A program made the translations under genes and the position numbers. The notes beneath the pieces were generated by a model. The model was not told where the DNA came from, made no database searches, and saw nothing but the letters and a program-made list of their open reading frames with translations. From Flectonema sp. DT1601 (taxonomy: Eukaryota), in assembly GCA_964019425.1 (NCBI GenBank), contig OZ025785.1:62001-126000 (forward strand): 64,000 nucleotides of DNA, in the 5' to 3' direction. Positions 10,724 to 57,179 of the stretch are shown here, piece after piece. Each line of letters opens with the position of its first letter. Within the stretch, counting starts at the first letter, position 1.

Positions 10724-10761
<38 letters not shown>

Positions 10762-25870: not shown

Positions 25871-26071
25871 TTTTCACACTATCTCACGGTGGTAAAAAAA
25901 ACATGTTAACCCTTACACCACCGGAGCTGATATATCAGTCTGAAAAAAAAGTTTTTCACACTATCTCACGGTGGTAAAAAAAACATGTTAACCCTTACAC
26001 CACCGGAGCTGATATCAGTCTGAAAAAAAAAATTTTCACACTATCTCACGGTGGTAAAAAAAACATGTTAA
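25871..26071. repeat. Tandem array (about 81-bp unit) of flank + TTAA + inverted piggyBac right end
   Basis: ttttcacactatctcacggtggtaaaaaaaacatgTTAAcccttacaccaccg occurs three times, with TTAA at 25906, 25988 and 26068. The first two continue gagctgata(ta)tcagtctgaaaaaaaa, the reverse complement of about 27775-27815. Confidence 0.9.
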
Positions 26072-28116: not shown

Positions 28117-30819
28117 TTAGTTGAAGTTATTATTTAGGAAATTCCTTTTAACAACATCACTGCAATCTTCCAATCCCTTAACATTTCTCATAGTTGTAGA
28201 TAATTTCTCATTCAAGAATTCACGTCCTATTGAAGTCAGTTTCTTCAAACCGGAAACATCGATGGAGGTGAGGGACTCACAGTGACTAATAAAGTCATAG
28301 CCAACACTCGTAACTTCACTCAAGGAAGACAAATCCACGCTAGTCAGAGACTTCGAATAATACAAGAATCCATTTCCTATTTTACTCAGCTTCTTCAAAC
28401 CGGAAACATCGATGGAGGTGAGGGACTCACAGTTTCTAATAAATTTATTGCCAACACTCGTTACTTCACTCAGACACGATAGATTAACGTGTGTCAGAGA
28501 ATCTGAGTATTGCAAGAATCCATCTCCTATTTGAGTCAGCTTCTTCAAACCGGAAACATCGATGGAGGTGAGGGATTCACAGTTACTAATAAAGTAATCG
28601 CCAACACTCGTAACTTCACTCAAGCAAGACAAATCCACACTAGTCAGACACTTTAAATTAAACAAGAATAAGCTTCCTATTTTACTCAGCTTCTTCAAAC
28701 CGGAAACATCGATGGAGGTGAGGGACTCACAGTTTCTAACAAAGTCATCGCCAACACTCGTTACTTCACTCAAGGAAGACAAATCCACGCTAGTCAGAGA
28801 CTTTGAATTATGCAAGAATCTATTTGGTATTTTAGTCAGTTTCTTCAAACCGGAAACATCGATGGAGGTGAGGGACACACAGCCTCTAATAAAGTAATTG
28901 CCAACACTAAGTACTTCACTCAGACAGGATAAATTAACGTGAGTCAGAGAACTTGAGAATTCCAAGAATCCACTTCCAATTTTACTCAGCTTCTTCAAAC
29001 CGGAAACATCGATGGAGGTGAGAGACTCACAGTCACTAATAAAGTCATCGCCAACACTCGTTACTTCACACAAGGAAGACAAATCCACGCTAGTCAGAGA
29101 CTTTGAATTATGCAAGAATCTATTTGGTATTTTAGTCAGTTTCTTCAAACCGGAAACATCGATGGAGGTGAGGGACACACAGCCTCTAATAAAGTAATTG
29201 CCAACACTAAGTACTTCACTCAGACAGGATAAATTAACGTGAGTCAGAGAACTTGAGAATTCCAAGAATCCACTTCCAATTTTACTCAGCTTCTTCAAAC
29301 CGGAAACATCGATGGAGGTGAGAGACTCACAGTCACTAATAAAGTCATCGCCAACACTCGTTACTTCACACAAGGAAGACAAATCCACACTAGTCAGACA
29401 CTTTAAATTAAACAAGAATAAGCTTCCTATTTTACTCAGCTTCTTCAAACCGGAAACATCGATGGAGGTGAGAGACTCACAGTGACTAATAAATTGATCG
29501 CCAACACTCGTTACTTCACACAAGGAAGACAAGTCCACGCTAGTCAGAGAACTTGAGAATCCCAAGAATCCATTTCCTATTTCAGTCAACTTTTGAAAAT
29601 CTGAAACATCGATGGAGGTGAGGGACTCACAGTTACTAATAAAGTCATCGCCAACACTCGTTACTTCACACAAGGAAGACAAATCCACGCTAGTCAGAGA
29701 ACTTGAGAATCCCAAGAATCCATTTCCTATTTCAGTCAACTTTTGAAAATCTGAAACATCGATGGAGGTGAGGGACTCACAGTTACTAATAAAGTCATCG
29801 CCAACACTCGTTACTTTACTCAGACAGGATAAATCCACGTGAGTCAGAGACTTCAAGTTATTCAAGAACTTGCTGGAGATGGCCGTCACATTGTGAAAAG
29901 AAGTGAAATCGATTGACGTCAGCGAGTCACAACTGTCTGACAGGAACTCTTGCTCAAATGCAGTGCAACGGCTGCAGTTGGTGAATGACAACCGACGGAT
30001 GCAAGACGGAAGCATCTTAACACAATCACTAGAAAGGGTGCCTTCATCGTCGATATATTCTGAGGCATCGAAGACACACAACATGTCCGGATTTTGTGCG
30101 AACAAAACGTCAATTCGAGTACGAAGATGTGAAGTTTTCAACTCCTCCGCAGTCACAACACGTTCATACCGAGGCCATTTGTATGTTCTTTTCACAGTAC
30201 CCCAGTTGTTCGAATCTTCCAGCTCACGGAGGATCTCGGCACCCCATGAGGTGTTGTCAAATTGGGATTTGACTTCTTCCTTCGACGAGTCGGAGAGTCT
30301 CGGCCAGTCCAGCAGCAGAAAGAGTTCTTTCCTGAGTTGGGCTGGGACACCCTCTTCTGTTTCACCCATGCCCAAGTAACCAATTTGAAGTGTGTTGAAA
30401 TACTCATCCTCATTCAGCAGCCGAGGGAAGCAGGTGGACGAGAATACATTCCTCAGGTCATCTTCGACCAACTCCAACTTCCCGTCCCCCTTGAGATCAG
30501 CTTTAACAAACCCGATATCGGCACACTTCATGTCAGGATGCAAGGAAAGGGTTCCCAGTAATCGCGAGCTTCCTTCCACCAGCTTCGCCGACTCCTTCTC
30601 CCTCGCCACCCGGTGTACTTCCTTGTACGTCGTCAATTCAGTCGCAACCTCAGCATCCGTCATTCCAACCATGATCTCCTCCGACGATCTGAGAACTTCT
30701 GAAAAGCTGTCCATCAGCGCCCCCGACTCCTCCTTCCGACTCACCACTTCCACGAGCAGCTTCGCCATGAACCTCTGATGGCTCCTCAAAACAGAGGACA
30801 GGGAATCGACAGTTGCCAT
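28117..30819 (-). CDS. LRR family copy 1: conserved ~300-aa N-terminal domain + 23 BspA-type 25-aa LRRs (900 aa)
   Basis: Alternating units LTSVDLSSLSEVTSVGxxFIxxCES / LTSIDVSGLKKLTxIGxxFLxxSxS. No signal peptide or TM segment. Contains a near-exact internal 300-bp duplication (about 28745-29345). Confidence 0.9.
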   Translation of the reverse strand: MATVDSLSSVLRSHQRFMAKLLVEVVSRKEESGALMDSFSEVLRSSEEIMVGMTDAEVATELTTYKEVHRVAREKESAKLVEGSSRLLGTLSLHPDMKCADIGFVKADLKGDGKLELVEDDLRNVFSSTCFPRLLNEDEYFNTLQIGYLGMGETEEGVPAQLRKELFLLLDWPRLSDSSKEEVKSQFDNTSWGAEILRELEDSNNWGTVKRTYKWPRYERVVTAEELKTSHLRTRIDVLFAQNPDMLCVFDASEYIDDEGTLSSDCVKMLPSCIRRLSFTNCSRCTAFEQEFLSDSCDSLTSIDFTSFHNVTAISSKFLNNLKSLTHVDLSCLSKVTSVGDDFISNCESLTSIDVSDFQKLTEIGNGFLGFSSSLTSVDLSSLCEVTSVGDDFISNCESLTSIDVSDFQKLTEIGNGFLGFSSSLTSVDLSSLCEVTSVGDQFISHCESLTSIDVSGLKKLSKIGSLFLFNLKCLTSVDLSSLCEVTSVGDDFISDCESLTSIDVSGLKKLSKIGSGFLEFSSSLTHVNLSCLSEVLSVGNYFIRGCVSLTSIDVSGLKKLTKIPNRFLHNSKSLTSVDLSSLCEVTSVGDDFISDCESLTSIDVSGLKKLSKIGSGFLEFSSSLTHVNLSCLSEVLSVGNYFIRGCVSLTSIDVSGLKKLTKIPNRFLHNSKSLTSVDLSSLSEVTSVGDDFVRNCESLTSIDVSGLKKLSKIGSLFLFNLKCLTSVDLSCLSEVTSVGDYFISNCESLTSIDVSGLKKLTQIGDGFLQYSDSLTHVNLSCLSEVTSVGNKFIRNCESLTSIDVSGLKKLSKIGNGFLYYSKSLTSVDLSSLSEVTSVGYDFISHCESLTSIDVSGLKKLTSIGREFLNEKLSTTMRNVKGLEDCSDVVKRNFLNNNFN

Positions 30820-32384: not shown

Positions 32385-32642
32385 TTCCAAACATACACCA
32401 ATCCTTTAAACAATTCTTACTTAGTTGTTTTGTATCCAGCAAGAATCCATTTCTAATTTCAGTCAGCTTCTGAAAACTGCAAACATCGATGGAGGTGAGG
32501 GACTCACAGTGACTAATAAAGCAACACTCGTAACTTCACTCAAGGAAGACAAGTCCACCCTTGTCTGAGACCTTGAATTACGCAAGAATCCATTTGCTAT
32601 TTTAGTGAGATTCCGAAAACCTGAAACATCGATGGAGGTGAG
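32385..32642 (-). pseudogene. Orphan LRR cassette (about 3 repeats plus a degraded C-terminal cap)
   Basis: Has two catcgatggaggtgag cores and ctcgtaacttcactcaaggaagac, with small deletions. There is no N-terminal domain, and it ends abruptly at 32642. Confidence 0.8.
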
Positions 32643-32844: not shown

Positions 32845-34353
32845 TTATATCCGATTGTTTCGAAACCGCTCCTTCAAAATCATTCCAACGACATCACTGC
32901 AATCTTCCAATCCCTTGAAATCTTTCTCAGTCAGTTTCGTTTTCCATAAGAATCCATTTCCTATTATAGTCAGCTTCTTCAAACCAGAAACATCGATGTA
33001 GGTGAGGGACTCACAGTTATCAATAAAGCAACGGCTAACGCTCGTAACTTCACTCAAGGAAGACAAATCCACGCTAGTCAGAGAATCCGATTTTTGCAAG
33101 AATCCATCCCCTATTTTAGTCAGCTTCTTCAAACCGGAAACATCGATGGAGGTGAGGGACTCACAGTTACTAATAAAGGAATTGCCAACACTCGTAATTT
33201 CACTCAAGGAAGACAAATCCACGCTAGTCAGAGACTTTAAATTATGCAAGAATCCATCTCCTATTTTAGTCAGCTTCTTCAAACCGGAAATATCGATAAA
33301 AATGAGAGATTCACAGTGACAAATAAAGTGATCGCCAATGCTAGTTACTTCACTCAGACAGGATAAATTAACGTGAGTCAGAGACTTCGAGTTATACAAG
33401 AACATATTGGGGATTGCCGTCACATTGTGGAAAGAAGTGAAATCAATTGACGTCAGCGAGTCACAACTGTCTGACAGGAACTCTTGCTCAAAAGCAGTGC
33501 AACGGCTGCAGTTGGTGAATGACAACCGACGGATAGAAGACGGAAGCATCTCAACACAATCACTAGAAAGGGTGCCTTCATCGTCGATATATTCTGAGGC
33601 ATCGAGGACACACAACATTTCGGGATTTTGTGTGAACAAAACGTCAATTCGAGTACGAAGATGTGAAGTTCTCAACTCCTCCGCAGTCACAACACGTTCA
33701 TACCGAGGCCATTTGTATGTTCTTTTCACAGTACCCCAGTTGTTCGAATCTTCCAGCTCACGGAGGATCTCGGCACCCCATGAGGTGTTGTCAAATTGGG
33801 ATTTGACTTCTTCCTTCGACGAGTGGGAGAGTCTCGGCCAGTCCAGCAGCAGGAAGAGTTCCTTCCTGAGTTGGGCTGGGACACCCTCCTCTGTTTCACC
33901 CATGCCCAAGTAACCAATTTGAAGTGTGTTGAAATACTCATCCTCGTTCAGCAGCCGAGGGAAGCAGGTGGACGAGAATACATTCCTCAGGTCATCTTCG
34001 ACCGGCTCCAACTTCCCGTCCCCCTTGAGATCAGCTTTAACAAACCCGAAATCGGCACACTTCATGTCAGGATGCAAGGAAAGGCTCCCCAGTAATCGCG
34101 AGCTTCCTTCCACCAACTTCGCCGACTCCTTCTCCCTCGCCACCCAGTGTACTTCCTTGTACGTCGTCAATTCAGTCGCAGCCTCAGCATCCGTCATTCC
34201 AACCATGATCTCCTCCGACGATCTGAGAACTTCTGAAAAGCTGTCCATCAGCGCCCCTGACTCCTCCTTCCGACTCACCATTTCCACGAGCAGCTTCGCC
34301 ATGAACCTCTGATGGCTCCTCAAAACAGAGGACAGGGAATCGACAGTTGCCAT
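32845..34353 (-). CDS. LRR family copy 2 (502 aa, 7 LRRs, C-terminal type B)
   Basis: Intact ORF, near-identical N-terminal domain, ends GMILKERFRNNRI. Confidence 0.9.
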   Translation of the reverse strand: MATVDSLSSVLRSHQRFMAKLLVEMVSRKEESGALMDSFSEVLRSSEEIMVGMTDAEAATELTTYKEVHWVAREKESAKLVEGSSRLLGSLSLHPDMKCADFGFVKADLKGDGKLEPVEDDLRNVFSSTCFPRLLNEDEYFNTLQIGYLGMGETEEGVPAQLRKELFLLLDWPRLSHSSKEEVKSQFDNTSWGAEILRELEDSNNWGTVKRTYKWPRYERVVTAEELRTSHLRTRIDVLFTQNPEMLCVLDASEYIDDEGTLSSDCVEMLPSSIRRLSFTNCSRCTAFEQEFLSDSCDSLTSIDFTSFHNVTAIPNMFLYNSKSLTHVNLSCLSEVTSIGDHFICHCESLIFIDISGLKKLTKIGDGFLHNLKSLTSVDLSSLSEITSVGNSFISNCESLTSIDVSGLKKLTKIGDGFLQKSDSLTSVDLSSLSEVTSVSRCFIDNCESLTYIDVSGLKKLTIIGNGFLWKTKLTEKDFKGLEDCSDVVGMILKERFRNNRI

Positions 34354-36921: not shown

Positions 36922-38700
36922 TCAAAATATCTTCATACTCAATCGCACGGAAAAACTACAATCTTCCAATCCCTTGACATCTTTCTTAGTTAGTTTTGTA
37001 TTCCATAACAAATTACTTCCTGTTGTAGTCACTTTCCGAAACCCGGAAACATCAATTGAGGTAAGAGACTCACAGTTACTAATAAAGTTATTGCCAACAC
37101 TCGTAACTTCACTCAAGGAAGACAAATCCACGCTAGTCAGAGACTTTGAGTATTGCAAGAATCCATCTCCTATTTCAGTCAGCTTCATACCGGAAACATT
37201 GATGGAGGTTAGGGACTCACAGTCACTAATAAAGTAATTGCCAACACTCGTAACTTCACTCAAGGAAGACAAATCCACTCTAGTCAGAGACTCCGATTTT
37301 CGCAAGAATCCATTTCCTATTTTACTCAGCTTCTTCAAACCGCAAACATCGATGGAGGTGAGGGACTCACAGTGACTAATAAAGTAATTGCCAACACTCG
37401 TAACTTCACTCAAGGAAGACAAACCCACGCTAGTCAGAGACTTTGAATTATGCAAGAACCCATATCCTATTATAGTCAGCTTCTTCAAACCGGAAATATC
37501 GATGGAGGTGAGGGACTCACAGTGACTAATAAAGTAATTGCCAACACTCGTTACTTTCCTCAAGGAAGACAAATCCACGCTAGTCAGAGACTCCGATTTT
37601 TGCAAGAATCCATTTCCTATTTTAGTCAGCTTCTTCAAACCAGAAATATTGATGGAGGTGAGGGACTCACAGTTAATAATAAAGTGATCGTCAATGCTCG
37701 TTACTTTACTCAGACCGGATAGATTAACGTGAGTCAGAGACTGCAAGTTGTTCAAGAACTTGCTGGGGATGGCCGTCACATTGTGAAAAGAAGTGAAATC
37801 GATTGACGTCAGCGAGTCACAACTGTCTGACAGAAACTCTTGCTCAAAAGCAGTGCAACGGCCGCAGTTGGTGAATGACAACCGACGGATAGAAGACGGA
37901 AGCATCTCAATACAATCACTAGAAAGGGTGCCTTCATCGTCGATATATTCTGAGGCATCGAAGACACACAACATGTCGGGATTTTGTGTGAACAAAATGT
38001 CAATTCGAGTACGAAAATGTGAAGTTTTCAACTCCTCCGCAGTCACAAGTCCAGGCCTCTTGTATGTTCTTTTCATAGTACCCCAGTTGTTCGAATCTTC
38101 CAGCTCACGGAGGATCTCGGCACCCCATGAGGTGTTGTCAAATTGGGATTTGACTTCTTCCTTCGACGAGTCTGAGAGTCTCGGCCAGTCCAGCAGCAGA
38201 AAGAGTTCCTTCCTGAGTTGGGCTGGGACACCCTCTTCTGTTTCACCCATGCCCAAGTAACCAGTTTGAAGTGTGTTGAAATACTCATCCTCGTTCAGCA
38301 GCCGAGGGAAGCAGGTGGACGAGAATACATTCCTCAGGTCATCTTCGACCAACTCCAACTTCCCCTCCCCCTTGAGATCAGCTTTAACAAACCCGATATC
38401 GGCACACTTCATGTCAGGATGCAAGGAAAGGGTTCCCAGTAATCGCGAGCTTCCTTCCACCAACTTCGCCGACTCCTTCTCCCTCGCCACCCAGTGTACT
38501 TCCTTGTACGTCGTCAATTCAGTCGCAGCCTCAGCATCCGTCATTCCAACCATGATCTCCTCCGACGATCTGAGAACTTCTGAAAAGCTGTCCATCAGCG
38601 CCCCCGACTCCTCCTTCCGACTCACCATTTCCACGAGCAGCTTCGCCATGAACCTCTGATGGCTCCTCAAAACAGAGGACAGGGAATCGACAGTTGTCAT
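36922..38700 (-). CDS. LRR family copy 3 (592 aa, 11 LRRs; last residues replaced by foreign sequence)
   Basis: True start is ATG 38700 (MTTVDSLSS) by homology to the other copies. Homology stops after KGLEDCS at about 36955. Confidence 0.85.
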   Translation of the reverse strand: MTTVDSLSSVLRSHQRFMAKLLVEMVSRKEESGALMDSFSEVLRSSEEIMVGMTDAEAATELTTYKEVHWVAREKESAKLVEGSSRLLGTLSLHPDMKCADIGFVKADLKGEGKLELVEDDLRNVFSSTCFPRLLNEDEYFNTLQTGYLGMGETEEGVPAQLRKELFLLLDWPRLSDSSKEEVKSQFDNTSWGAEILRELEDSNNWGTMKRTYKRPGLVTAEELKTSHFRTRIDILFTQNPDMLCVFDASEYIDDEGTLSSDCIEMLPSSIRRLSFTNCGRCTAFEQEFLSDSCDSLTSIDFTSFHNVTAIPSKFLNNLQSLTHVNLSGLSKVTSIDDHFIINCESLTSINISGLKKLTKIGNGFLQKSESLTSVDLSSLRKVTSVGNYFISHCESLTSIDISGLKKLTIIGYGFLHNSKSLTSVGLSSLSEVTSVGNYFISHCESLTSIDVCGLKKLSKIGNGFLRKSESLTRVDLSSLSEVTSVGNYFISDCESLTSINVSGMKLTEIGDGFLQYSKSLTSVDLSSLSEVTSVGNNFISNCESLTSIDVSGFRKVTTTGSNLLWNTKLTKKDVKGLEDCSFSVRLSMKIF

Positions 38701-39919: not shown

Positions 39920-41404
39920 TCAAAACCGCTCCTTTAAAATCATTCCAACGACATCACTGCAATCTTCCAATCCCTTGAAATCTTTCTCAGTCAGTTTCGT
40001 TTTCCATAAGAATCCATTTCCTATTATAGTCAGCTTCTTCAAACCAGAAACATCGATGTAGGTGAGGGACTCACAGTTACCAATAAAGCAACGGCTAACG
40101 CTCGTAACTTCACTCAAGGAAGACAAATCCACGCTAGTAAGAGACTTTGAATTATGCAAGAATCCGTATCCTATTGTAGTCAGCTTCTTCAAACCGGAAA
40201 GATCGATGGAGGTGAGGGACTCACAGTTTCTAACAAACTCATTGCCAATGCTGGTTACTTCACTCAAGGAAGACAAATCCACGCTAGTCAGAGACCTTGT
40301 ACTATGCAAGAATCCATATCCTATTGTAGTCAACTTCTGAAAACCGGAAACATCGATGGAGGTGAGGGACTCACAGTTTTTACTAAAGTCATCGCCAACA
40401 CTCGTTACTTTACTCAGACCGGATAAATTAACGTGAGTCAGAGACTTCGAGTTATTCAAGAACTTGCTGGGGATGGCCGTCACATTGTGCAAAGAAGTGA
40501 AATCGATTGACGTCAGCGAGTCACAACTGTCTGACAGGAACTCTTGCTCAAATGCAGTGCAAAGGCTGCAGTTGGTGAATGACAACCGACGGATGCAAGA
40601 CGGAAGCATCTCAACACAATCACTAGAAAGGGTGCCTTCATCGTCGATATATTCTGAGGCATCGAAGACACACAACATGTCAGGATTTTGTGTGAACAAA
40701 ATGTCAATTCGAGTACGAAAATGTGAAGTTTTCAACTCCTCCGCAGTCACAAGTCCAGGCCTCTTGTATGTTCTTTTCACAGTACCCCAGTTGTTCGAAT
40801 CTTCCAGCTCACGGAGGATCTCGGCACCCCATGAGGTGTTGTCAAATTGGGATTTGACTTCTTCCTTCGAAGAGTTGGAGAGTCTCGGCCAGTCCAGCAG
40901 CAGAAAGAGTTCCTTCCTGAGTTGGGCTGGGACACCCTCTTCTGTTTCACCCATGCCCAAGTAACCAATTTGAAGTGTGTTGAAATACTCATCCTCGTTC
41001 AGCAGCCGAGGGAAGCAGGTGGACGAGAATACATTCCTCAGGTCATCTTCGACCAATTCCAACTTCCCGTCCCCCTTGAGATCAGCTTTAACAAACCCGA
41101 TATCGGCACACTTCATGTCAGGATGCAAGGAAAGGGTTCCCAGTAATCGCGAGCTTCCTTCCACCAGCTTCGTCGACTCCTTCTCCCTCGCCACCCGGTG
41201 TACTTCCTTGTACGTCGTCAATTCAGTCGCAGCCTCAGCATCCGTCATTCCAACCATGATCTCCTCCGACGATCTGAGAACTTCTGAAAAGCTGTCCATC
41301 AGCGCCCCCGACTCCTCCTTCCGACTCACCACTTCCACCAGCAGCTTCGCCATGAACCTCTGATGGCTCCTCAAAACAGAGGACAGGGAATCGACAGTTG
41401 CTAT
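39920..41404 (-). pseudogene. LRR family copy 4 (7 LRRs, type B); start codon ATG>ATA and a premature stop near the end
   Basis: ATA at 41404 where the paralogues have ATG. CGA>TGA at 39920 removes RNNRI. It could still be translated from Met18 (MAKLL). Confidence 0.75.
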
Positions 41405-42330: not shown

Positions 42331-43751
42331 TTATTTAGGAAATTCTTTTTTAACAACAGCACTGCAACCTTCCAATCCCTTAACACCTTTTTTAGTTAGT
42401 TTTGTATCCATTAAGAATCCATATCCTATTGCAGTCACTTTCTTCAAACCGGAAACATCGATGGAGGTGAGGGACTCACAGTGACTAATAAATTGATCGC
42501 CAACACTCGTAACTTCACTCAAGGAAGACAAATCTACGCTAGTCAGACACTTTGAATTATGCAAGAACCAATTTCCTATTGTAGTCAGCTTCTTCAAACC
42601 TGAAACATCGATGGAGGTGAGGGACTCACAGTTACTAATAAAGCGATCGCCAACACTCGTAACTTCACTCAAGGAAGACAAATCCACGCTAGTCAGACAC
42701 TTTGAATTATGCAAGAAACAATTTCCTATTGTAGTCAGCTTCTTCAAACCTGAAACATCGATGGAGGTGAGGGACTCACAGTTACTAATAAAGTGATCGC
42801 CAACACTCGTAACTTCACTCAAGGAAGACAAATCCACGCTAGTCAGACACTTTGAAGTACTCAAGAAACAATTTCCTATTGTAGTCAGCTTCTTCAAACC
42901 GGAAACATCGATGGAGGTGAGGGACTCACAGTTTCTAACAAAGTCGTAGCCAATGCTGGTTACTTTACTCAGACAGGATAAATTAACGTGAGTCAGAGAC
43001 TTCAAGTTGTTCAAGAACTTGCTGGGGATGGCCGTCACATTGTGAAAAGAAGTGAAATCGATTGACGTCAGCGAGTCACAACCGTCTGACAGGAACTCTT
43101 GCTCAAATGCAGTGCAACGGCTGCAGTTGGTGAATGACAACCGACGGATAGAAGACGGAAGCATCTTAACACAATCACCAGAAAGGGTGCCTTCATCGTC
43201 GATATATTCTGAGGCATCGAGGACACACAACATGTCGGGATTTTGTGTGAACAAATTGTCAATTCGAGTACGAAGATGTGAAGTTCTCAACTCCTCCGCA
43301 GTCACAACACGTTCATACCTAGGCCATTTGTGGAGAAGGAGTCGGCGAAGTTGGTGGAAGGAAGCTCGCGATTACTGGGAACCCTTTCCTTGCATCCTGA
43401 CATGAAGTGTGCCGATTTCGGGTTTGTTAAAGCTGATCTCAAGGGGGACGGGAAGTTGGAGCCGGTCGAAGATGACCTGAGGAATGTATTCTCGTCCACC
43501 TGCTTCCCTCGGCTGCTGAACGAGGATGAGTATTTCGAGACAGTTCGAATTGGTTACTTGAGCCTGACTACTTCAGAGGATGGTGTCTCACCCCAACTCA
43601 GGAAGGAACTCTTCCTGTTGCTGGACTGGCCGAGACTCTCCTCCTCGGGGAAGGAAAAAGTAAAATCCGAATTTGACAACACCTCATGGGGTGCCGAGAT
43701 CCTCCGTGAGCTGGAAGATTCGAACAACTTGGGTACTGTGACAGTTGCCAT
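42331..43751 (-). pseudogene. LRR family copy 5 (9 LRRs), N-terminal domain disrupted by an inversion and a deletion
   Basis: The leader and ATG (43751, MATV) are intact, 43332-43740 is inverted, and about 200 bp (codons ~4-72) are missing. The LRR part 42331-43331 is open. Confidence 0.85.
43332..43740 (+). other. Inverted fragment of the LRR-family N-terminal domain (codons ~73-209)
   Basis: The plus strand reads EKESAKLVEGSSRLLG...ELEDSNNLGTV. This is the only piece of the family on the plus strand. Confidence 0.9.
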
Positions 43752-44595
43752 TATTTTTAAACTGGATGAGTTTCTGGTGATGAAGAATTAATTCAAAGGA
43801 TACGTAACTTCAATTCAAGAACGTAATTCACATGATAACTGACACCAGAGAACAATCATCGCTACTCACTATGACTGCGGAATTAATTAATTTAAATACT
43901 TGTATTGCGTGTACTTCATGGAGGGGTGAAACTTTCACAATGTAAAAACAATAACAACTTTAGGTATTAATACAAAAACTAATATCAAAGTATTCGATTG
44001 AATAGTTGTTAATAAAAGAAAAAGTTCGTTGTCTCATTGACCAGAAGACGTTGTCGAATCTGGTAATTCAGGGACCACGTACTATCAGGTTGAGAGTCCA
44101 ATCCGTTACAACTTACACTTAAATAAAATAAAAAGAACAAAACAGTTCGTATTACAGGACTAGTTAGTAGTACACTGCTAGCGGCGTACTCTTGCGTGGA
44201 GGGAGTTAATTGATTTCGAGTGAGCTCATATTGTGAAAACAAAAAGTTATAAAAACACAATTGTTCTGCTGTTCCATAAGCCACTTGCGGAATACGTAGT
44301 TTCAGGAGCCTTAATCTTATACTACTTGTCCCTCTTAGGTCTTCATCAGTAAGTTCTGACGGACTTCACTCCAGTTCTTCAGAATCAGACATTGACAAAT
44401 ATGATTTCGCCAAGACGGGCTGGTATATACTTGGTTTTGATCAGCTGAGTTCCATGTAATGTAAAAACAATAACAACTTTAGGTATTAAAACAAAAAGAA
44501 TCGGCACCTCACTAAATAATTCTCACACTTTGTTTTTCTTTGTGCGCAACCGGACCCCTTAATATTTAAACACTTCCCTAATTTCTTTTAGGAAC

Positions 44596-44814
44596 GCACG
44601 TCAACACCGCAACGGACCTCCACCAGAGTTTCCCCGGCTTCGTCCTATCCAGGCATAGTTCACCATCTTTCGGGTCCCAATAAGTGTACTTTACCTCAAA
44701 TCCTTTTCCAATAAATCGGGATCGGGCTGTGCTACACCCCCAGGGGTTGGCACATAAAGACCCTTTCAGTGCGGCTAATGGGTTTGACACCCTAAACCTT
44801 TGCACACGCGTTAG
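44596..44814 (-). rRNA. Isolated ~220-bp fragment of eukaryotic LSU (28S) rRNA, not a functional gene
   Basis: The minus strand contains GGGACCCGAAAGATGGTGAACTATGCCTG...GAAGCC..GGAAACTCTGGTGGAGG...TGACGTGC, the conserved core after the D3 region. No further rDNA is seen on either side. Confidence 0.85.
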
Positions 44815-45542: not shown

Positions 45543-48161
45543 TTATTTAGGAAATACTTTTTTAACAACAGCACTGCAACCTTCCAATCCCTTAACACTT
45601 TTCTTAGTTAGTTTTGTACCTATTAAGAATCCATATCCTATTGCAGTCACTTTCTTCAAACCGGTAATATCGATGGAGGCGAGGGACTCATTTTTAGTTA
45701 GTTTTGTTTCATACAAGAATCCATCTCCTATTTCAGTCACTTTCCTCAAACCGGAAACATCGATGTAGGTGAGGGACTCACAGTTACTAATAAAGACATC
45801 GCCAATACTCGTTACTTCACTAAAGGAAGACAAATCCACGCTAGTCAGAGACTTTGAATTACGCAAGAATCCACTTCCTATTTCAGTCAGCTTCTTCAAA
45901 CCGGAAACATCGATGGAGGTGAGGGACTCACAGAAACTAATAAAGTGATCGCCAACATTCGTAACTTCACTCAAGGAAGACAAATCCACGCTAGTCAGAG
46001 ACTTTGAATTACGCAAGAATCCACTTCCTATTTCAGTCAGCTTCTTCAAACCGGAAACATCGATGGAGGTGAGGGACTCACAGTAACCAATAAAGTGATC
46101 GCCAACACTCGTTACTTCACTCAAGGAAGACAAATCCACGCTAGTCAGAGACTTTGAACTATGCAAGAATCCACGTCCTATTTCAGTCAGCTTCTTCAAA
46201 CCGGAAACATCGATGGAGGTGAGGGACTCACAGTAACCAATAAAGTGATCGCCAATACTCGTTACTTCACTCAAGGAAGACAAATCCACGGTCAGAGACT
46301 TTGAACTATGCAAGAATCCACGTCCTATTTCAGTCAGCTTCTTCAAACCGGAAACATCGATGGAGGTGAGGGACTCACAGTAACCAATAAAGTGATCGCC
46401 AATACTCGTAACTTCACTCAAGGAAGACAAATCCACGCTAGTCAGAGACTTTGAATTATGCAAGAATCCATCTCCAATTTTAGTCAGCTTCTTCAAACCG
46501 GAAACATCGATGGAGGTGAGGGACTCACAGCGACTAATAAAGACATCGCCAATACTCGTAACTTCACTCAAGGAAGACAAATCCACGCTAGTCAGAGACT
46601 TTGAATTATTCAAGAATCCATTTCCTATTTCAGTCAGCTTCTTCAAACCGGAAACATCGATGGAGGTGAGAGACTCACAGTTATTAATAAAGTGATCGCC
46701 AACACTCGTAACTTCACTCAAGGAAGACAAATCCACGCTAGTCAGAGACTTTGAATTACGCAAGAATCCATTTCCTATTTCAGTCAGCTTCTTCAAACCG
46801 GAAACATCGATGGAGGTGAGGGACTCACAGTAACCAATAAAGTGATCGCCAATACTCGTAACTTCACTCAAGGAAGACAAATCCACGCTAGTCAGAGACT
46901 TTGAATAATGCAAGAATCCATATCCTATTTCAGTCAGCTTCTTCAAACCGGAAACATCGATGGAGGTGAGAGACTCACAGTTATTAATAAAGTGATCGCC
47001 AACACTCGTAACTTCACTCAAGGAAGACACATCCACGCTAGTCAGACACTTTGAGTATCGCAAGAATCCACTTCCTATTGCAGTCAGCTTCTGAAAACCG
47101 GAAACATCGATGGAGGTGAGGGACTTACAGTTACTAATAAAGTCATCGCCAACACTCGTTACTTCACTCAGACCGGATAAATTAACGTGAGTCAGAGACT
47201 TCGAGTTGTTCAAGAACTTGCTGGGGATGGCCGTCACATTGTGAAAAGTAGTGAAATCGATTGACGTCAGCGAGTCACAACTGTCTGACAGAAACTCTTG
47301 CTCAAAAGCAGTGCAACGGCTGCAGTTGGTGAATGACAACCGACGGATAGAAGACGGAAGCATCTCAACACAATCACTAGAAAGGGTGCCTTCATCGTCG
47401 ATATATTCTGAGGAATCGAAGACACACAACATGTCGGGATTTTGTGCGAACAAAATGTCAATTCGAGTACGAATATGTGAAGTTCTCAACTCCTCCGCAG
47501 TCACAACACGTTCAGGCCATTTGTATGTTCTTTTCACAGTACCCCAGTTGTTCGAATCTTCCAGCTCACGGAGGATCTCAGCACCCCATGAGGTGTTGTC
47601 AAATTGGGATTTGACTTCTTCCTTCGACGAGTGGGAGAGTCTCGGCCAGTCCAGCAGCAAGAAGAGTTCCTTCCTGAGTTGGGCTGAGACACCATCCTCT
47701 GTTTCACCCATGCCCAAGTAACCAATTCGAACTGTCTCGAAATACTCATCCTCGTTCAGCAGCCGAGGGAAGCAGGTGGACGAGAATACATTCCTCAGGT
47801 CATCTTCGACCAACTCCAACTTCCCGTCCCCCTTGAGATCAGCTTTAACAAACCCGATATCGTCACACTTCATGTCAGGATGCAAGGAAAGGGTTCCCAG
47901 TAATCGCGAGCTTCCTTCCACCAGCTTCGCCGACTCCTTCTCCCTCGCCACCCGGTGTACTTCCTTGTACGTCGTCAATTCAGTCACAGCCTCAGCATCC
48001 GTCATTCCAACCATGATCTCCTCCGACGATCTGAGAACGTCAGAAAAGCTGTCCATCAGCGCCCCCGACTCCTCCTTCCGACTCACCATTTCCACCAGCA
48101 GCTTCGCCATGAACCTCTGATGGCTCCTCAAAACAGAGGACAGGGAATCGATAGTTGTCAT
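45543..48161 (-). CDS. LRR family copy 6 (872 aa, 22 LRRs including a doubled C-terminal capping repeat)
   Basis: Intact ORF with one 3-nt in-frame deletion (LTVDL). It ends ETKLTKNES-LASIDI...GTKLTKKSVKGLEGCSAVVKKVFPK. Confidence 0.9.
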   Translation of the reverse strand: MTTIDSLSSVLRSHQRFMAKLLVEMVSRKEESGALMDSFSDVLRSSEEIMVGMTDAEAVTELTTYKEVHRVAREKESAKLVEGSSRLLGTLSLHPDMKCDDIGFVKADLKGDGKLELVEDDLRNVFSSTCFPRLLNEDEYFETVRIGYLGMGETEDGVSAQLRKELFLLLDWPRLSHSSKEEVKSQFDNTSWGAEILRELEDSNNWGTVKRTYKWPERVVTAEELRTSHIRTRIDILFAQNPDMLCVFDSSEYIDDEGTLSSDCVEMLPSSIRRLSFTNCSRCTAFEQEFLSDSCDSLTSIDFTTFHNVTAIPSKFLNNSKSLTHVNLSGLSEVTSVGDDFISNCKSLTSIDVSGFQKLTAIGSGFLRYSKCLTSVDVSSLSEVTSVGDHFINNCESLTSIDVSGLKKLTEIGYGFLHYSKSLTSVDLSSLSEVTSIGDHFIGYCESLTSIDVSGLKKLTEIGNGFLRNSKSLTSVDLSSLSEVTSVGDHFINNCESLTSIDVSGLKKLTEIGNGFLNNSKSLTSVDLSSLSEVTSIGDVFISRCESLTSIDVSGLKKLTKIGDGFLHNSKSLTSVDLSSLSEVTSIGDHFIGYCESLTSIDVSGLKKLTEIGRGFLHSSKSLTVDLSSLSEVTSIGDHFIGYCESLTSIDVSGLKKLTEIGRGFLHSSKSLTSVDLSSLSEVTSVGDHFIGYCESLTSIDVSGLKKLTEIGSGFLRNSKSLTSVDLSSLSEVTNVGDHFISFCESLTSIDVSGLKKLTEIGSGFLRNSKSLTSVDLSSFSEVTSIGDVFISNCESLTYIDVSGLRKVTEIGDGFLYETKLTKNESLASIDITGLKKVTAIGYGFLIGTKLTKKSVKGLEGCSAVVKKVFPK

Positions 48162-49231
48162 TATTTTTAAACTGGATGAGTTTCTGGTGATGAAGAATTA
48201 ATTCAAAGGATGCGTAACTTCAATTCAAGAACGTAATTCACATGATAACTGACACCAGAGAACAATCATCGCTACTCACTATGACTGCGGAATTAATTAA
48301 TTTAAATACTTGTATTGCGTGTACTTCATGGAGGGGTGAAACTTTCACAATGTAAAAACAATAACAACTTTAGGTATTAATACAAAAACTAATATCAAAG
48401 TATTCGATTGAATAGTTGTTAATAAAAGAAAAAGTTCGTTGTCTCATTGACCAGAAGACGTTGTCGAATCTGGTAATTCAGGGACCACGTACTATCAGGT
48501 TGAGAGTCCAATCCGTTACAACTTACACTTAAATAAAATAAAAAGAACAAAACAGTTCGTATTACAGGACTAGTTAGTAGTACACTGCTTTAATGTAAAA
48601 ACAATAACAGCTTTAGGTATTAAAACAAAAAGAATCGGCAGCTCACTAAATAATTCTCACACTGTGCGCAACCGGACCCCTTAATATGTAAACACTTCTC
48701 TAAATTCTTTTAGGAACGCACGTATTTCACTCTACCCCAGATATTTAAACACTACCCCAGTTCTTTCTTTTTTTTCATGACCTTACATATTTGCGTTCAA
48801 CCTTCCAAGCACGTCTCGAAGGTTCGTCAGCAGGATTCTCCTTCGACGATCCATTCGAATGTGAGATTTCGGAGAGTCACACGACAACAGGTCGGGTTAC
48901 ACCCGACTTGTTCCTGCAAATAGCTGAAATCAATTCCGTTTAAATAAATATGGTCTGCAACAAAATAATGGATTGAAAGGTTACTACTTTAGTACTGACG
49001 TCATTATTGATCTTCGGAATTGAATCTTAACGTCTTCTGATGTTGTCCAAGTTCAATTTATGTAATTTATCACCAACACTGAACACCAACAGAAGGGATT
49101 CAAATGTTTTATTAAAACTGACTGCTCTGAATTTCATTACAGACATCAGCCGTCTTCCTTAAGAAGAGGAAGTAAAAAGATATTAACACCCCAGTCAAGG
49201 AATATAATTACTTACTAATGGCTCAAGGTAA

Positions 49232-50734
49232 TTATATCCGATTGTTTCGAAACCGCTCCTTCAAAATCATTCCAACGACATCACTGCAATCTTCCAATCC
49301 CTTGAAATCTTTCTCAGTCAGTTTTGTATTCTCTAAGAAAGATCTCCCTATTGTAGTCACTTTTTGAAAACTGGAAATATCGATAGAGGTGAGGGACTCG
49401 CAGTTACTAATAAAGCAATCGCCAACACTCGTAACTTCACTCAGGGAAGACAAATCCACGCTAGTCAGAGAACTTGAGTATTGCAAGAATCCATCTCCTA
49501 TTTCAGTCAGCTTCTTCAAACCTGAAACATCGATGGAGGTGAGGGACTCACAGTTTCTAACAAACTCATTGCCAATGCTTGTTACTTCACTCAAGGAAGA
49601 CAAATCCACGCTAGTCAGAGACATTGAATTATGCAAGAATCTACTTCCTATTGTAGTCAGTTTCTTCAAACCTGACACATCGATGGAGGTGAGGGACTCA
49701 CAGTTATTAATAAAGTAATCGCCAACACTCGTTACTTCACTCAGACCGGATAAATTAACGTGAGTCAGAGACTTCGAGTTGTTCAAGAACGTGCTGGGGA
49801 TGGCCGTCACATTGTGAAAAGAAGTGAAATCGATTGACGTCAGCGAGTCACAACTATCTGACAGGAACTCTTGCTCAAAAGCAAAGCAACGGCTGCAGTT
49901 GGTGAATGACAACCGACGGAGAGAAGACGGAAGCATCTCAATACAATCACTAGAAAGGGTGCCTTCATCGTCGATATATTCTGAGGCATCGAGGACACAC
50001 AACATGTCGGGATTTAGTCCGAACAAAATGTCAATTCGAGTACGAAGATGTGAAGTTCTCAACTCCTCCGCAGTCACAACACGTTCAGACCATTTGTATG
50101 TTCTTTTCACAGTACCCCAGTTGTTCGAATCTTCCAGCTCACGGAGGATCTCAGCACCCCATGAGGTGTTGTCAAATTGGGATTTGACTTCTTCCTTCGA
50201 CGAGTGAGAGAGTCTTGGCCAGTCCAGCAGCAGGAAGAGTTCCTTCCTGAGTTGGGCTGGGACACCCTCTTCTGTTTCACCCATGCCCAAGTAACCAATT
50301 TGAAGTGTGTTGAAATACTCATCCTCGTTCAGCAGCCGAGGGAAGCAGGTGGACGAGAATACATTCCTCAGGTCATCTTCGACCAACTCCAACTTCCCGT
50401 CTCCCTTGAGATCAGCTTTAACAAACCCGATATCGGCACACTTCATGTCAGGATGCAAGGAAAGGGTTCCCAGTAATCGCGAGCTTCCTTCCACCAACTT
50501 CGCCGACTCCTTCTCCCTCGCCACCCGGTGTACTTCCTTGTACGTCGTCAATTCAGTCGCAGCCTCAGCATCCGTCATTCCAACCATGATCTCCTCCGAC
50601 GATCTGAGAACTTCTGAAAAGCTGTCCATCAGCGCCCCCGACTCCTCCTTCCAACTCACTACTTCCACCAGCAGCTTCGCCATGAACCTCTGATGGCTCC
50701 TCAAAACAGAGGACAGGGAATCGACAGTTGCCAT
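49232..50734 (-). CDS. LRR family copy 7 (500 aa, 7 LRRs, type B)
   Basis: Intact ORF with the same N-terminal domain, ends GMILKERFRNNRI. Confidence 0.9.
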   Translation of the reverse strand: MATVDSLSSVLRSHQRFMAKLLVEVVSWKEESGALMDSFSEVLRSSEEIMVGMTDAEAATELTTYKEVHRVAREKESAKLVEGSSRLLGTLSLHPDMKCADIGFVKADLKGDGKLELVEDDLRNVFSSTCFPRLLNEDEYFNTLQIGYLGMGETEEGVPAQLRKELFLLLDWPRLSHSSKEEVKSQFDNTSWGAEILRELEDSNNWGTVKRTYKWSERVVTAEELRTSHLRTRIDILFGLNPDMLCVLDASEYIDDEGTLSSDCIEMLPSSLRRLSFTNCSRCFAFEQEFLSDSCDSLTSIDFTSFHNVTAIPSTFLNNSKSLTHVNLSGLSEVTSVGDYFINNCESLTSIDVSGLKKLTTIGSRFLHNSMSLTSVDLSSLSEVTSIGNEFVRNCESLTSIDVSGLKKLTEIGDGFLQYSSSLTSVDLSSLSEVTSVGDCFISNCESLTSIDISSFQKVTTIGRSFLENTKLTEKDFKGLEDCSDVVGMILKERFRNNRI

Positions 50735-56157: not shown

Positions 56158-56230
56158 CTGTTTGTTGATTTTGACCTTACTAACTTCCCTGTATTGATCA
56201 AAGGAACTACCAGTATTTAATTACACATAC

Positions 56231-56998
56231 CCCTTCGTGATGAGTCGTGGTCGCCATGTAGAGGAGTTGTGGGCTGCTGAGCTCACACCAAACTCTTCGT
56301 TGCTTCAGCTTCTCAATATTCTTTTGCACATCTTTGTTGATCTTTATCATTTTCTCACCAAAATCGTCTCTCTGTTTGGTGCTAAAGGGACGCAGATAGT
56401 AAGAATTGGCATCATCACCAAGGAGATCTTTTGGAGTGAGTCCTCGTCGGATGAAATTTTCAGTTCTGCTCGTGAGGATAACCCACGACTCTGATAACAA
56501 CAACGGGTTGAGTTTCAGTAAGTCGGTACCGGAGTCACCGACAACGTTTGCAGTTCCTTCATCAAAGGAATCAAGAACTATAACAACAGTGTAGGTGAAT
56601 AGTTGTTTGATATCACAATCAGGTGGAAGCATATTCTCCACGATGTACTTGTCGATAGCATGCGGCTCAAATGCATTTCCGACACTTCCCATCGACACAA
56701 ATACTGGGAAGTATTTCTCATTCAATTCTCTAATTAGTTTGACCCCCGCAGAAGTCTTCCCCCCTCCAGCCTCTGACTGCAGTACGAGTGGGGGTCGGTC
56801 GTCACTCTCAAGAAGGTCTTTAATCAATTTAGTTAAGCTGATGTCTTCAATTCCCTCTCTGCTGGTGACGCATTTGCACAAAGTCGGAACAAGTTTGCAC
56901 AAAGTCGGATCGACGTAACAACGTTCGAATTTTGCAAAAACGTATGTCGCAAGTGTGCACCACACCTCGCGCATTTGTTTCAACTGCTCCGATCTGGC
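56231..56998 (-). CDS. NACHT/STAND NTPase exon
   Basis: Walker A LVLQSEAGGGKT, Walker B VIVLDSFDE, sensor VILTSR, LRPFS and SPQLL. Donor GGG|GTATGT at 56230 joins in frame to 56157. A candidate phase-0 acceptor is ccacAG|GCC at 56999/56998. Confidence 0.85.
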
Positions 56999-57179
56999 CT
57001 GTGGTTTTTTATTACTCTCTTTCCCACAAGAACGACAACGGGCATACTCGTATAAAACATAAAGAACGTTCCTATAAGTATCCCTAAATGAAGGGGGTGA
57101 AAAACAAGAAAAAAAGTGAAGTCAAATGTTTCTCACCCAACATCACTCGCAAGTGAAAACAAAAGGCTAAGTTACAAAC

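What the first reader, a model, noticed from the sequence alone, without database searches (positions are those of the whole stretch)
45690..47230. Hypervariability confined to a few codons, mostly NNY variants of AAT/AAC, and off the usual LRR binding face
Seen across copies: in GGC-x1-x2-TTT-ATT-x3-x4-TGT, x4 is AAC, CAC, GAC, TAC, GGC, CGC or TTC (always ending in C). x2 is AAC, GAC, CAC, TAC, CGC, GTC, TCC or TGC (exceptions CAA, AAA, GAG). x1 and x3 are mostly AAT, GAT, TAT, AGT, GGT, TGT or ATT. Change is almost all at codon positions 1-2. The LxxLxL beta-strand (LTSIDV/LTSVDL), the concave surface that normally varies in LRR receptors, is nearly invariant here. Inference: strong diversifying selection on a lateral or convex surface is the simplest reading. 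The AAY-to-NNY pattern also resembles adenine-directed mutagenesis by diversity-generating retroelements, but I see no template repeat or suitable RT, and many other adenines are conserved.
Basis: partly seen in the sequence, partly recalled or inferred. Interest (0 to 1): 0.75.

Follow-up and report, generated by a model that had tools for sequence, protein, structure and literature searches.

The report
Near-identical LRR repeats, few hypervariable codons
A tandem family of leucine-rich-repeat genes in a eukaryote that is likely a diplonemid protist has almost identical 25-residue repeats that differ at four or five fixed codons outside the usual binding strand, which likely reflects diversifying selection on a binding surface rather than a retroelement mutator.

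Summary
The stretch lies in an 872-aa minus-strand gene (45543-48161). It has a novel 294-aa N-domain and about 22 LRRs of 25 residues, alternating between two types. In the core units, scaffold columns are 97% identical and nine hypervariable (HV) codons per 150-bp unit are 75% identical. The HV positions are 17, 20, 21, 24 and 25 of type A and 20, 21, 24 and 25 of type B. The same positions rank top in eight paralogues outside the window. Non-synonymous diversity at HV codons is 2.6-4.7 times the synonymous diversity of the scaffold. Units with identical scaffolds still differ at HV codons.

A diversity-generating retroelement (DGR) is rejected: all four bases vary, neighbouring adenines are conserved, and no reverse transcriptase (RT) or template repeat was found. 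The host is a eukaryote whose nearest relatives are transcripts of the diplonemid Flectonema.

The best reading is repeat duplication and homogenisation combined with diversifying selection on predicted non-concave surface residues. The closest analogue is the fungal NLR repeat with high internal conservation. Ligand and function are unknown. I rate it a new variant of a known kind, of moderate interest.

The parts
45543..48161 (-). Gene that holds the finding: 872-aa ORF made of an N-domain and about 22 LRRs of 25 residues
   Evidence: Pfam LRR_4, LRR_8, LRR_EndoS and LRR_RPS2 match. AF2 pLDDT is above 90 over the LRR part.
47280..48161 (-). Family-specific N-terminal domain (294 aa) with no known family. 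It is 92-94% identical between paralogues.
   Evidence: Between paralogues dS is 0.043-0.083 and omega is 0.30-0.73. pLDDT is below 50 for residues 1-217.
45783..47129 (-). Nine core 150-bp units, each one type-A plus one type-B LRR, with high internal conservation. Scaffold columns are 97.2% identical and HV columns 75.3%.
   Evidence: TRF array 45714-47170.
46980..46997 (-). Example of the hypervariable cluster in one type-B repeat. Codon 20 is 46995-46997, codon 21 is 46992-46994, codon 24 is 46983-46985 and codon 25 is 46980-46982. The invariant TTT ATT lies between codons 21 and 24. The same offsets recur every 150 bp.
   Evidence: Unit coordinates and codons; position tables.
46230..46379 (-). 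Core unit with a one-codon deletion (SLT-VDL)
28117..30819 (-). Paralogue with 23 LRRs. It holds a 300-bp internal duplication, 296 of 300 bases identical, at 28732-29331.
32845..34353 (-). Paralogue with 7 LRRs
32439..32642 (-). Decayed LRR remnant just downstream of paralogue 32845-34353. It has a 7-bp deletion, is out of frame, and its mismatches fall at all four bases.
36922..38700 (-). Paralogue with 11 LRRs (ATG at 38700)
39920..41404 (-). Paralogue with 7 LRRs whose start codon reads ATA instead of ATG
42331..43741 (-). Rearranged paralogue with 9 LRRs. N-domain bases 648-882 are in place at 43315-43081. Bases 219-628 are inverted at 43332-43741.
49232..50734 (-). Paralogue with 7 LRRs

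Best explanation
The finding lies in one of seven tandem paralogous genes whose 25-residue leucine-rich repeats are about 97% identical in their scaffold but differ at four or five fixed codons per repeat; this is most likely produced by repeat duplication and homogenisation (inferred unequal recombination or gene conversion) together with diversifying selection on predicted surface residues that would contact a ligand.

Shown:
- The gene family, its repeat architecture and the fixed HV positions (17, 20, 21, 24, 25).
- An excess of non-synonymous change at these positions.
- HV divergence that is uncoupled from scaffold divergence.
- Recent unit duplications, and LRR numbers of 7 to 23 among paralogues.
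- No adenine-specific spectrum, no RT and no template repeat.

Inferred:
- The HV residues form a stripe along the solenoid on the side built by the second and third short strands, away from the concave sheet.
- That stripe is a binding surface whose specificity differs from repeat to repeat and from paralogue to paralogue.
- The proteins are intracellular. I saw no hydrophobic N-terminus or membrane span.
- The host is a diplonemid-like euglenozoan.

The ligand and the role of the N-domain are unknown.
For: Architecture. Seven same-strand paralogues share an N-domain and carry 7-23 LRRs. I parsed 82 units of exactly 25 codons, 43 of type A and 39 of type B. Three units of 24, 30 and 49 residues were dropped.

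Core sets. 32 of 43 type-A and 29 of 39 type-B units are at least 85% identical to the consensus. The cap and terminal units were dropped.

Selection.
- Type A: pN(HV) 0.413, pS(scaffold) 0.118, pN(scaffold) 0.036.
- Type B: pN(HV) 0.305, pS(scaffold) 0.137, pN(scaffold) 0.070.
- The ratios are 4.7 (bootstrap 2.5-5.2) and 2.6 (1.4-3.8).
- N-domain pS between paralogues is only 0.055.
- Minimum event counts are 31 non-synonymous against 5 synonymous at type-A HV codons, and 20 against 0 at type-B HV codons.

Control for post hoc choice of sites. Eight paralogues outside the window gave 44 type-A and 39 type-B units. Their top-entropy positions are A 24, 20, 17, 21 and B 21, 20, 25, 24. Positions defined on type B and tested on type A give pN 0.409 against a rest-of-repeat pS of 0.118.

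Uncoupling. 14 of 18 type-A unit pairs and 4 of 5 type-B pairs with zero scaffold differences still differ at HV codons, at about 0.24 per base. HV divergence stays at 0.23-0.44 whatever the scaffold distance.

Duplication. A 300-bp block in paralogue 28117-30819 is 296/300 identical.

Structure. The LRR part has pLDDT above 90 and three short strands per repeat, at positions 6-8, 17-18 and 23-24. The best fold matches are the solved LRR proteins 4fs7, 4gt6 and 4h09, and InlJ 3bz5.

Residues at HV sites. They are N 20%, D 13%, S 12%, G 10%, H 9% and Y 7% of 276. From general knowledge this mix is typical of binding sites.

A known precedent for this mode of evolution. Fungal het-d/het-e WD40 repeats have high internal conservation and four hypervariable sites under diversifying selection. 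I read passages of preprint 10.1101/2025.01.13.632504 and of PMC10197012.
Against: - At type-A HV codons the codon's own synonymous diversity is as high as the non-synonymous one: codon 20 is 0.468 against 0.388, codon 25 is 0.662 against 0.391 and codon 24 is 0.373 against 0.549. Within-codon omega is therefore about 1 there. This fits old alleles shielded from homogenisation, or a locally raised mutation rate, as well as recurrent positive selection.
- Scaffold pS is itself lowered by homogenisation, so ratios above 1 do not measure a substitution rate.
- The units are paralogous repeats that recombine. No tree-based site model was run and no population or orthologue data exist.
- I saw no model coordinates, so surface exposure and face assignment are inferred.
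- No ligand, expression or localisation data exist for this genome.
- In a divergent subfamily member (P0145), positions 21, 24 and 25 vary within repeat types, but so do many other positions.
Confidence: 0.7

Rival explanations
1. Relaxed constraint only. The HV positions are simply unconstrained surface residues that drift neutrally, while concerted evolution and purifying selection keep the rest identical.
For: Own-codon pS at type-A HV codons is about equal to pN. Scaffold omega of 0.29-0.49 shows purifying selection elsewhere.
Against: Whole-unit homogenisation would reset neutral HV codons together with their flanks. Yet pN(HV) is 2.6-4.7 times scaffold pS and 5-7 times N-domain pS. 18 of 23 unit pairs with identical scaffolds differ at HV codons. 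At type-B HV codons pS is 0.031 against pN 0.305.
Confidence: 0.13
2. Programmed or somatic diversification by templated exchange. Repeat cassettes would be copied between the tandem paralogues and broken copies, in the manner of VLR assembly or VSG mosaics, so the variation seen is the stock of a shuffling system rather than the product of point substitution.
For: There are many near-identical cassettes in tandem genes, all on the same strand. The same HV combinations recur in different units and genes. A rearranged copy, a copy without a start codon and a decayed remnant lie in the array.
Against: Five of the seven genes are complete ORFs with their own start codon. No incomplete acceptor gene was seen. 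There is no evidence of somatic variants: the two sequencing runs found held only 85-95% alike contigs. Germline unequal recombination explains the same facts.
Confidence: 0.1
3. Diversity-generating retroelement: adenine-directed mutagenic retrohoming from a template repeat.
For: Type-B HV codons are largely NNT/NNC. x1 ends in T in 38/39 units and x4 ends in C in 38/39. This looks like AAY-derived DGR codons.
Against: - Inside HV codons all four consensus bases vary: A 0.18-0.26, G 0.17-0.33, C 0.07-0.34, T 0.05-0.26. Outside them adenines vary no more than other bases: A 0.021 and 0.063, C 0.062, G about 0.05.
- Adenines in adjacent codons 13-17 are conserved.
- At x4, 12 of 17 variants change only the first A and none changes only the second.
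- No RT was found in any of the 76 stop-to-stop frames of 100 aa or more.
- The only non-coding repeat copy is a decayed remnant with mismatches at all four bases.
- More than 80 separate repeats in at least 15 genes would each need targeting.
- The host is a eukaryote. From recall, DGRs are known only from bacteria, archaea and their viruses.
Confidence: 0.01
4. Assembly artefact: collapsed or chimeric repeats that create false variants.
For: Tandem 150-bp repeats are hard to assemble.
Against: The ORF stays open for 872 codons. The variants are codon-structured and fall at the same positions in 15 family members on three contigs.
Confidence: 0.02

Closest known systems
Fungal NLR sensor repeats with high internal conservation (Podospora het-d, het-e, HNWD WD40 repeats)
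   Same: Tandem repeats are more than 80% identical within a gene and are held so by concerted evolution. A few fixed positions per repeat are hypervariable under diversifying selection. Repeat number varies, and paralogues exchange repeats. I read passages of 10.1101/2025.01.13.632504 and PMC10197012. Here mean unit identity is 0.933, there are 4-5 HV codons per repeat, and paralogues carry 7-23 repeats.
   Different: The repeat fold here is LRR, not WD40, ANK or TPR. No NACHT or NB-ARC domain is present; the N-domain has no known family. The host is a euglenozoan-like protist, not a fungus. No recognition function has been shown.
BspA-like / TpLRR proteins (Pfam LRR_5), such as the Trichomonas vaginalis TvBspA family
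   Same: Pfam LRR_5 matches 4 of 7 paralogues. The best fold match is 4fs7, a Bacteroides LRR protein. Like TvBspA, this is a large protist family whose LRR number varies between paralogues (passages of PMC2843621).
   Different: The gene of the finding itself has no LRR_5 match at E up to 0.01. The repeat is 25 residues. There is a family-specific N-domain and no signal peptide or membrane span by hydropathy. The near-identity of repeats with fixed HV codons is not described in the passages I read.
Plant NLR and R-gene LRRs and lamprey VLRs (diversified LRR receptors)
   Same: LRR solenoids whose specificity residues are under diversifying selection.
   Different: From general knowledge, variation in those proteins sits on the x residues of the concave LxxLxL strand. 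Here those residues are nearly invariant and the HV codons lie at positions 17-25. The genes here are complete rather than assembled from cassettes.
Diversity-generating retroelement targets
   Same: NNY-type codons at a few positions in a binding protein.
   Different: No adenine specificity, no RT, no template repeat, and a eukaryotic host.
TAL effector repeats with repeat-variable diresidues (recalled, not tested)
   Same: Near-identical tandem repeats that differ at a fixed pair of residues rich in N, H, D, S and G.
   Different: A different fold. Here there are two diresidues per repeat plus position 17. There is no evidence that one repeat reads one unit of a polymer.

Membership tests
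Leucine-rich repeat superfamily | Tandem LxxLxL-containing repeats of 20-30 residues that form a solenoid | tested here: met
   Pfam LRR_4 6.3e-20 and LRR_8 2.8e-17. AF2 gives pLDDT above 90 with a 25-residue period. More than 400 LRR structures match at E up to 0.001.
BspA-type LRR (Pfam LRR_5 / TpLRR) | Match to PF13306 above its gathering score | tested here: inconclusive
   Met by 4 of 7 paralogues (58-95 bits against a cut-off of 27.7). PF13306 is not listed for the gene of the finding, nor for paralogues 28117 and 32845.
BspA-type LRR (Pfam LRR_5 / TpLRR) | Fold like solved LRR_5-type proteins | tested here: met
   4fs7 ranks first (E 8.7e-11, TM 0.41 on the target). 4gt6 has TM 0.48 and 4h09 TM 0.37. 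The TM values are modest.
Diversity-generating retroelement | Reverse transcriptase gene close to the variable region | tested here: not met
   No RT family in any of the 76 stop-to-stop frames of 100 aa or more in the 64-kb window. The rest of the genome was not available.
Diversity-generating retroelement | Template repeat that differs from the variable repeat at adenines only | tested here: not met
   The only copy outside ORFs (32439-32642) is frameshifted. Its 26 mismatches fall at all four bases: A 9, G 9, C 4, T 4.
Diversity-generating retroelement | Substitutions confined to adenine positions, synonymous ones included | tested here: not met
   G, C and T vary as much as A inside HV codons. 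Adenines outside HV codons are non-consensus in 2.1% and 6.3% of cells.
High-internal-conservation repeats of NLR-type sensors | Repeats more than 80% identical within one gene | tested here: met
   Eight gap-free core units have pairwise identity of 0.873-0.967, mean 0.933.
High-internal-conservation repeats of NLR-type sensors | A few fixed hypervariable positions with an excess of non-synonymous change | tested here: met
High-internal-conservation repeats of NLR-type sensors | NACHT or NB-ARC nucleotide-binding domain upstream of the repeats | tested here: not met
   No Pfam family in the N-domain. No PDB sequence match at E up to 1. Atlas scores were at most 0.81. A separate NACHT plus WD40 gene lies at 53572-57121 but is not part of this family.
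High-internal-conservation repeats of NLR-type sensors | Repeat-number and repeat-order polymorphism between individuals | not testable with these tools
   Only one assembly exists. Paralogues differ (7-23 LRRs), but no alleles are available. The runs found were uninformative.
VLR-type somatically assembled LRR receptors | Incomplete germline gene completed from flanking cassettes | tested here: not met
   Five of the seven genes are complete ORFs with an ATG start and a C-terminal tail.
Modular code repeats (TALE, PPR, PUF type) | One repeat contacts one unit of a linear polymer through its variable residues | not testable with these tools
   No ligand is known. The only support is the formal likeness of near-identical repeats with variable diresidues.

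The most novel reading that the evidence does not exclude
Diplonemids, among the most abundant marine protists, carry a combinatorial recognition repertoire built from near-identical LRR modules. Each module bears four or five specificity residues on a non-concave face. The modules are shuffled among tandem paralogues by unequal recombination. This would be an LRR counterpart of the fungal high-internal-conservation NLR sensors, and possibly a repeat-by-repeat code for an extended or periodic ligand, as in TAL effectors.
Probability: 0.2. Interest if true: 0.8.

Novelty: new variant of a known kind. Interest (0 to 1): 0.5.

Why it matters
If the reading holds, this is a clear case outside fungi of repeats with high internal conservation and fixed hypervariable sites. 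Here it occurs in an LRR fold and in a poorly studied euglenozoan lineage. The variable sites point to a binding face other than the concave sheet that is usually assumed for LRR proteins.

The family would offer a natural scaffold-plus-variable-positions library. It would also be a candidate self/non-self or prey/pathogen recognition system in marine protists.

The result also removes a tempting false lead: a DGR in a eukaryote. I found no mention of LRR in the Diplonema papillatum genome paper (word search of PMC10161547). Two literature searches on diplonemids and leucine-rich repeats returned nothing relevant.

Tried and rejected
- Whole genome: none is held for this window, so RT and template searches are limited to the 64 kb.
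- Earlier findings: nothing is on record for this genome.
- Sequencing runs: only two coded runs held a small share of the words (0.12 and 0.06), and no RNA holder is listed. Laid contigs were short or 85-95% alike, so they are paralogues or another strain. They were of no use for allele or expression questions.
- N-domain: no Pfam family, no PDB sequence match at E up to 1, and atlas feature scores of at most 0.81, which is at chance level.
- P4-ATPase atlas look-up: it showed only that the neighbour is eukaryotic.
- Rfam: one hit, an LSU rRNA fragment. ARAGORN found no tRNA.
- First per-site dN/dS pass: it included the cap and terminal units and was blurred by them. I replaced it with the core-unit analysis.
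- Tree-based site models: not run, because the units recombine and are only 75 bases long.
- Model coordinates: the structure tool does not hand them out, so solvent exposure could not be computed.
- Complex prediction and the second structure job: not used.
Full report
**What is there**

The finding lies on the minus strand, inside an 872-codon ORF at 45543-48161. Tandem Repeats Finder reports a 150-bp array at 45714-47170 with 9.7 copies and 93% matches.

Translated, the protein has a 294-residue N-terminal part followed by about 22 leucine-rich repeats of 25 residues. The repeats alternate between two types. Type A reads CESLTSIDVSGLKKLTEIGxGFLxx and type B reads SKSLTSVDLSSLSEVTSVGDxFIxx.

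Six more paralogues lie in tandem on the same strand: 28117-30819, 32845-34353, 36922-38700, 39920-41404, 42331-43741 and 49232-50734. They carry 7 to 23 LRRs. Pfam gives LRR_4, LRR_8, LRR_EndoS and LRR_RPS2 for the gene of the finding. It gives BspA-type LRR_5 for 4 of the 7 paralogues.

**The observation**

I parsed 82 units of exactly 25 codons from the seven genes, 43 of type A and 39 of type B. Three units of 24, 30 and 49 residues were left out.
- x4 is AAC22, CAC6, GAC3, TAC3, GGC2, CGC1, TTC1, GGT1.
- x1 ends in T in 38 of 39 units.
- x2 ends in C in 33 of 39.
- x3 ends in T in 30 of 39.
- x4 ends in C in 38 of 39.

The strand residues T5, S6 and D8 are nearly invariant. In type A they are 42, 40 and 42 of 43.

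The lists arise only from pooling all paralogues. Within the stated coordinates x1 is GAT in 9 of 9 regular units, and x2, x3 and x4 take three, three and four codons. Only x4 has AAC as its commonest codon. Type A is also hypervariable, at positions 17, 20, 21, 24 and 25, and there third letters vary too.

**Is it more than chance?**

For the core units I kept those at least 85% identical to the consensus: 32 of 43 type A and 29 of 39 type B. The cap and terminal units were dropped.
- Nucleotide diversity at letters 1-2 of the HV codons averages 0.401 over 18 columns.
- Third letters of all other codons average 0.101 over 41 columns.
- Mann-Whitney p = 2.5e-7.
- In the eight gap-free core units of the gene itself, the 123 scaffold columns are 97.2% identical and the 27 HV columns 75.3%.

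The HV set was picked after looking, so I checked it on independent material. Eight paralogues outside the window (P0002-5, 8, 10-12) gave 44 type-A and 39 type-B units. Their highest-entropy positions are A 24, 20, 17, 21 and B 21, 20, 25, 24. Positions defined on type B and tested on type A give pN 0.409 against pS 0.118 for the rest of the repeat.

**Selection test**

Nei-Gojobori counts over all unit pairs:
- Type A: pN(HV) 0.413, pS(scaffold) 0.118, pN(scaffold) 0.036.
- Type B: pN(HV) 0.305, pS(scaffold) 0.137, pN(scaffold) 0.070.
- After Jukes-Cantor correction dN(HV)/dS(scaffold) is 4.7 (bootstrap over units 2.5-5.2) for type A and 2.6 (1.4-3.8) for type B.

Site by site, pN/pS(scaffold) is as follows:
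- Type A: codon 24 = 4.6, codon 17 = 3.6, codon 25 = 3.3, codon 20 = 3.3, codon 21 = 2.5.
- Type B: codon 21 = 3.7, codon 25 = 2.2, codon 2 = 1.7, codon 24 = 1.6, codon 20 = 1.5.

The N-domain of the six alignable paralogues has dS 0.043-0.083 and omega 0.30-0.73. The family as a whole is therefore young or homogenised.

HV divergence is uncoupled from scaffold divergence. 14 of 18 type-A pairs and 4 of 5 type-B pairs with no scaffold difference at all still differ at HV codons, by about 0.24 per base. HV divergence stays at 0.23-0.44 whatever the scaffold distance.

One result cuts the other way. At type-A HV codons the codon's own synonymous diversity is also high (0.24-0.66). At type-B HV codons it is near zero (pooled 0.031). 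Part of the signal may therefore be old variation protected from homogenisation, not only fast new substitution. Both readings require selection in favour of diversity at these sites.

**Directed mutagenesis**

The DGR idea fails on every test that the window allows.
- Inside HV codons all four consensus bases vary: A 0.18-0.26, G 0.17-0.33, C 0.07-0.34, T 0.05-0.26.
- Outside HV codons adenines are non-consensus in 2.1% (type A) and 6.3% (type B) of cells, no more than C or G. Most adenine columns at letters 1-2 never vary.
- At x4, 12 of 17 variant codons change only the first A and none changes only the second.
- All 76 stop-to-stop frames of 100 aa or more were scanned with Pfam. None carries a reverse transcriptase.
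- A blastn of one unit against the window finds 48 hits. 46 lie inside the seven ORFs.
- The other two hits form a decayed, frameshifted remnant at 32439-32642. Its 26 mismatches fall at all four bases.
- No whole genome was available.

**Structure**

An AlphaFold2 model was built with 15 family sequences. It gives pLDDT above 90 across the LRR part and below 50 for residues 1-217.

Each 25-residue repeat has three short strands: positions 6-8 (the canonical concave strand), 17-18 and 23-24. The HV positions therefore fall in the second strand (17), in the turn between the second and third strands (20, 21), and in and just after the third strand (24, 25). All of them lie outside the concave strand.

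Foldseek ranks 4fs7 first. 4gt6, 4h09 and the Cys-ladder internalin InlJ 3bz5 are among the best, with TM-scores of 0.37-0.48 on the target.

Hydropathy shows no signal-like N-terminus and no membrane span; the maximum 19-residue Kyte-Doolittle mean is 0.99. The protein is therefore predicted to be intracellular and soluble.

**Family and host**

A word-indexed search with the N-domain found only 11 proteins. All are unnamed and sit on three contigs of 162, 464 and 583 kb. A full HMMER search with an N-domain profile found 21 cluster representatives.

The distant ones (E 1e-49 to 1e-11) have the same N-domain-plus-LRR layout. Six of the nine I looked up are EukProt transcripts of Flectonema neradi, and three are unnamed ENA contigs. 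Flectonema is a diplonemid in Euglenozoa.

The neighbouring helicase has its best relative in the same transcriptome, at 58% identity. The next best is at 29%.

Nearly all long ORFs of the window lie on one strand. The P4-ATPase is split by what looks like an intron end. Both features match what the Diplonema papillatum genome paper describes: unidirectional gene arrays and 1.6 introns per gene (passages of PMC10161547). The window is thus likely from a diplonemid-like euglenozoan other than Flectonema.

In the distant relatives the x residues of the first strand do vary between repeats. The invariance of the concave face here is therefore a property of this homogenised subfamily.

**Mechanism**

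Shown:
- Recent unit duplications, including a 300-bp block that is 296/300 identical in paralogue 28117-30819.
- LRR numbers of 7-23 among paralogues.
- Broken copies in the array.
- A near-identical scaffold with saturated variation at fixed codons.

Inferred:
- Unequal recombination or gene conversion keeps duplicating and homogenising the repeats.
- Selection favours, or protects, differences at four or five surface residues per repeat.
- Together these residues form a binding surface along the solenoid.
- The HV residues are mainly N, D, S, G, H and Y, a mix that from general knowledge is common in binding sites.

**Comparison with what is known**

The closest known mode of evolution is the fungal HNWD/het-d/het-e WD40 domain. 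Its repeats have high internal conservation kept by concerted evolution, with four hypervariable sites under diversifying selection on the interaction surface. I read passages of 10.1101/2025.01.13.632504 and PMC10197012.

The present family shares the repeat-level features. It lacks the NACHT or NB-ARC domain and uses an LRR fold. I therefore say it works like those sensors, not that it is a member of that group.

By fold and Pfam it is nearest to BspA-type LRRs, but the LRR_5 match is absent from the gene of the finding. It differs from plant NLR and VLR-type LRRs in where the variable residues sit.

**Verdict**

The DGR lead is closed. I rate it a new variant of a known kind and of moderate interest. 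The ligand, expression and the role of the N-domain remain open.

Noticed in passing
window 44546-44814 (-): A 270-base match to eukaryotic LSU rRNA (Rfam RF02543, 94 bits, model positions 675-954) lies in the spacer between two LRR paralogues. Part of it (44457-44601) recurs at 88% identity at 48591-48723 in the next spacer. It may be an rRNA-derived dispersed fragment.
   Followed up: partly
window 42331-43741: One paralogue has bases 219-628 of its N-domain inverted (43332-43741, + strand), next to the in-place bases 648-882 (43315-43081). Its upstream region (43752-44179) is 99.8% identical to that of gene 45543. It is either a rearranged pseudogene or an assembly inversion.
   Followed up: partly
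window 41402-41404 (-): Paralogue 39920-41404 reads ATA where the other copies have the ATG start codon. An in-frame Met 17 codons downstream may serve as the start.
   Followed up: partly
window 10697-10760 (-): The phospholipid-translocating P-type ATPase is split into two ORFs (10696-12786 and 9554-10513). At the junction there is a run of about 31 T followed by an AG. This looks like the 3' end of an intron.
   Followed up: partly
window 53572-57121 (-): A NACHT-domain ORF (56210-57121) lies directly upstream of an ORF with WD40 and pentapeptide repeats (53572-56157). It may be one NLR-like gene. Tandem Repeats Finder found no high-identity internal repeats there.
   Followed up: partly
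window 57084-59042 (-): An ORF combines ankyrin repeats with a weak match to NAD:arginine ADP-ribosyltransferase (E 1.9e-4, just below the cut-off).
   Followed up: no
window 18707-19103: A 105-bp tandem repeat (3.8 copies, 88% matches) lies inside the 847-aa ORF 18622-21165, which has no Pfam family.
   Followed up: no
window 25871-26085: A non-coding 80-bp tandem repeat (2.7 copies, 97% matches) with A-runs lies between genes.
   Followed up: no
P0145 (unnamed ENA contig of 368124 bases): A divergent family member has a higher-order repeat of three LRR types (about 76 residues). Within types, positions 21, 24 and 25 vary, as do several others.
   Followed up: partly
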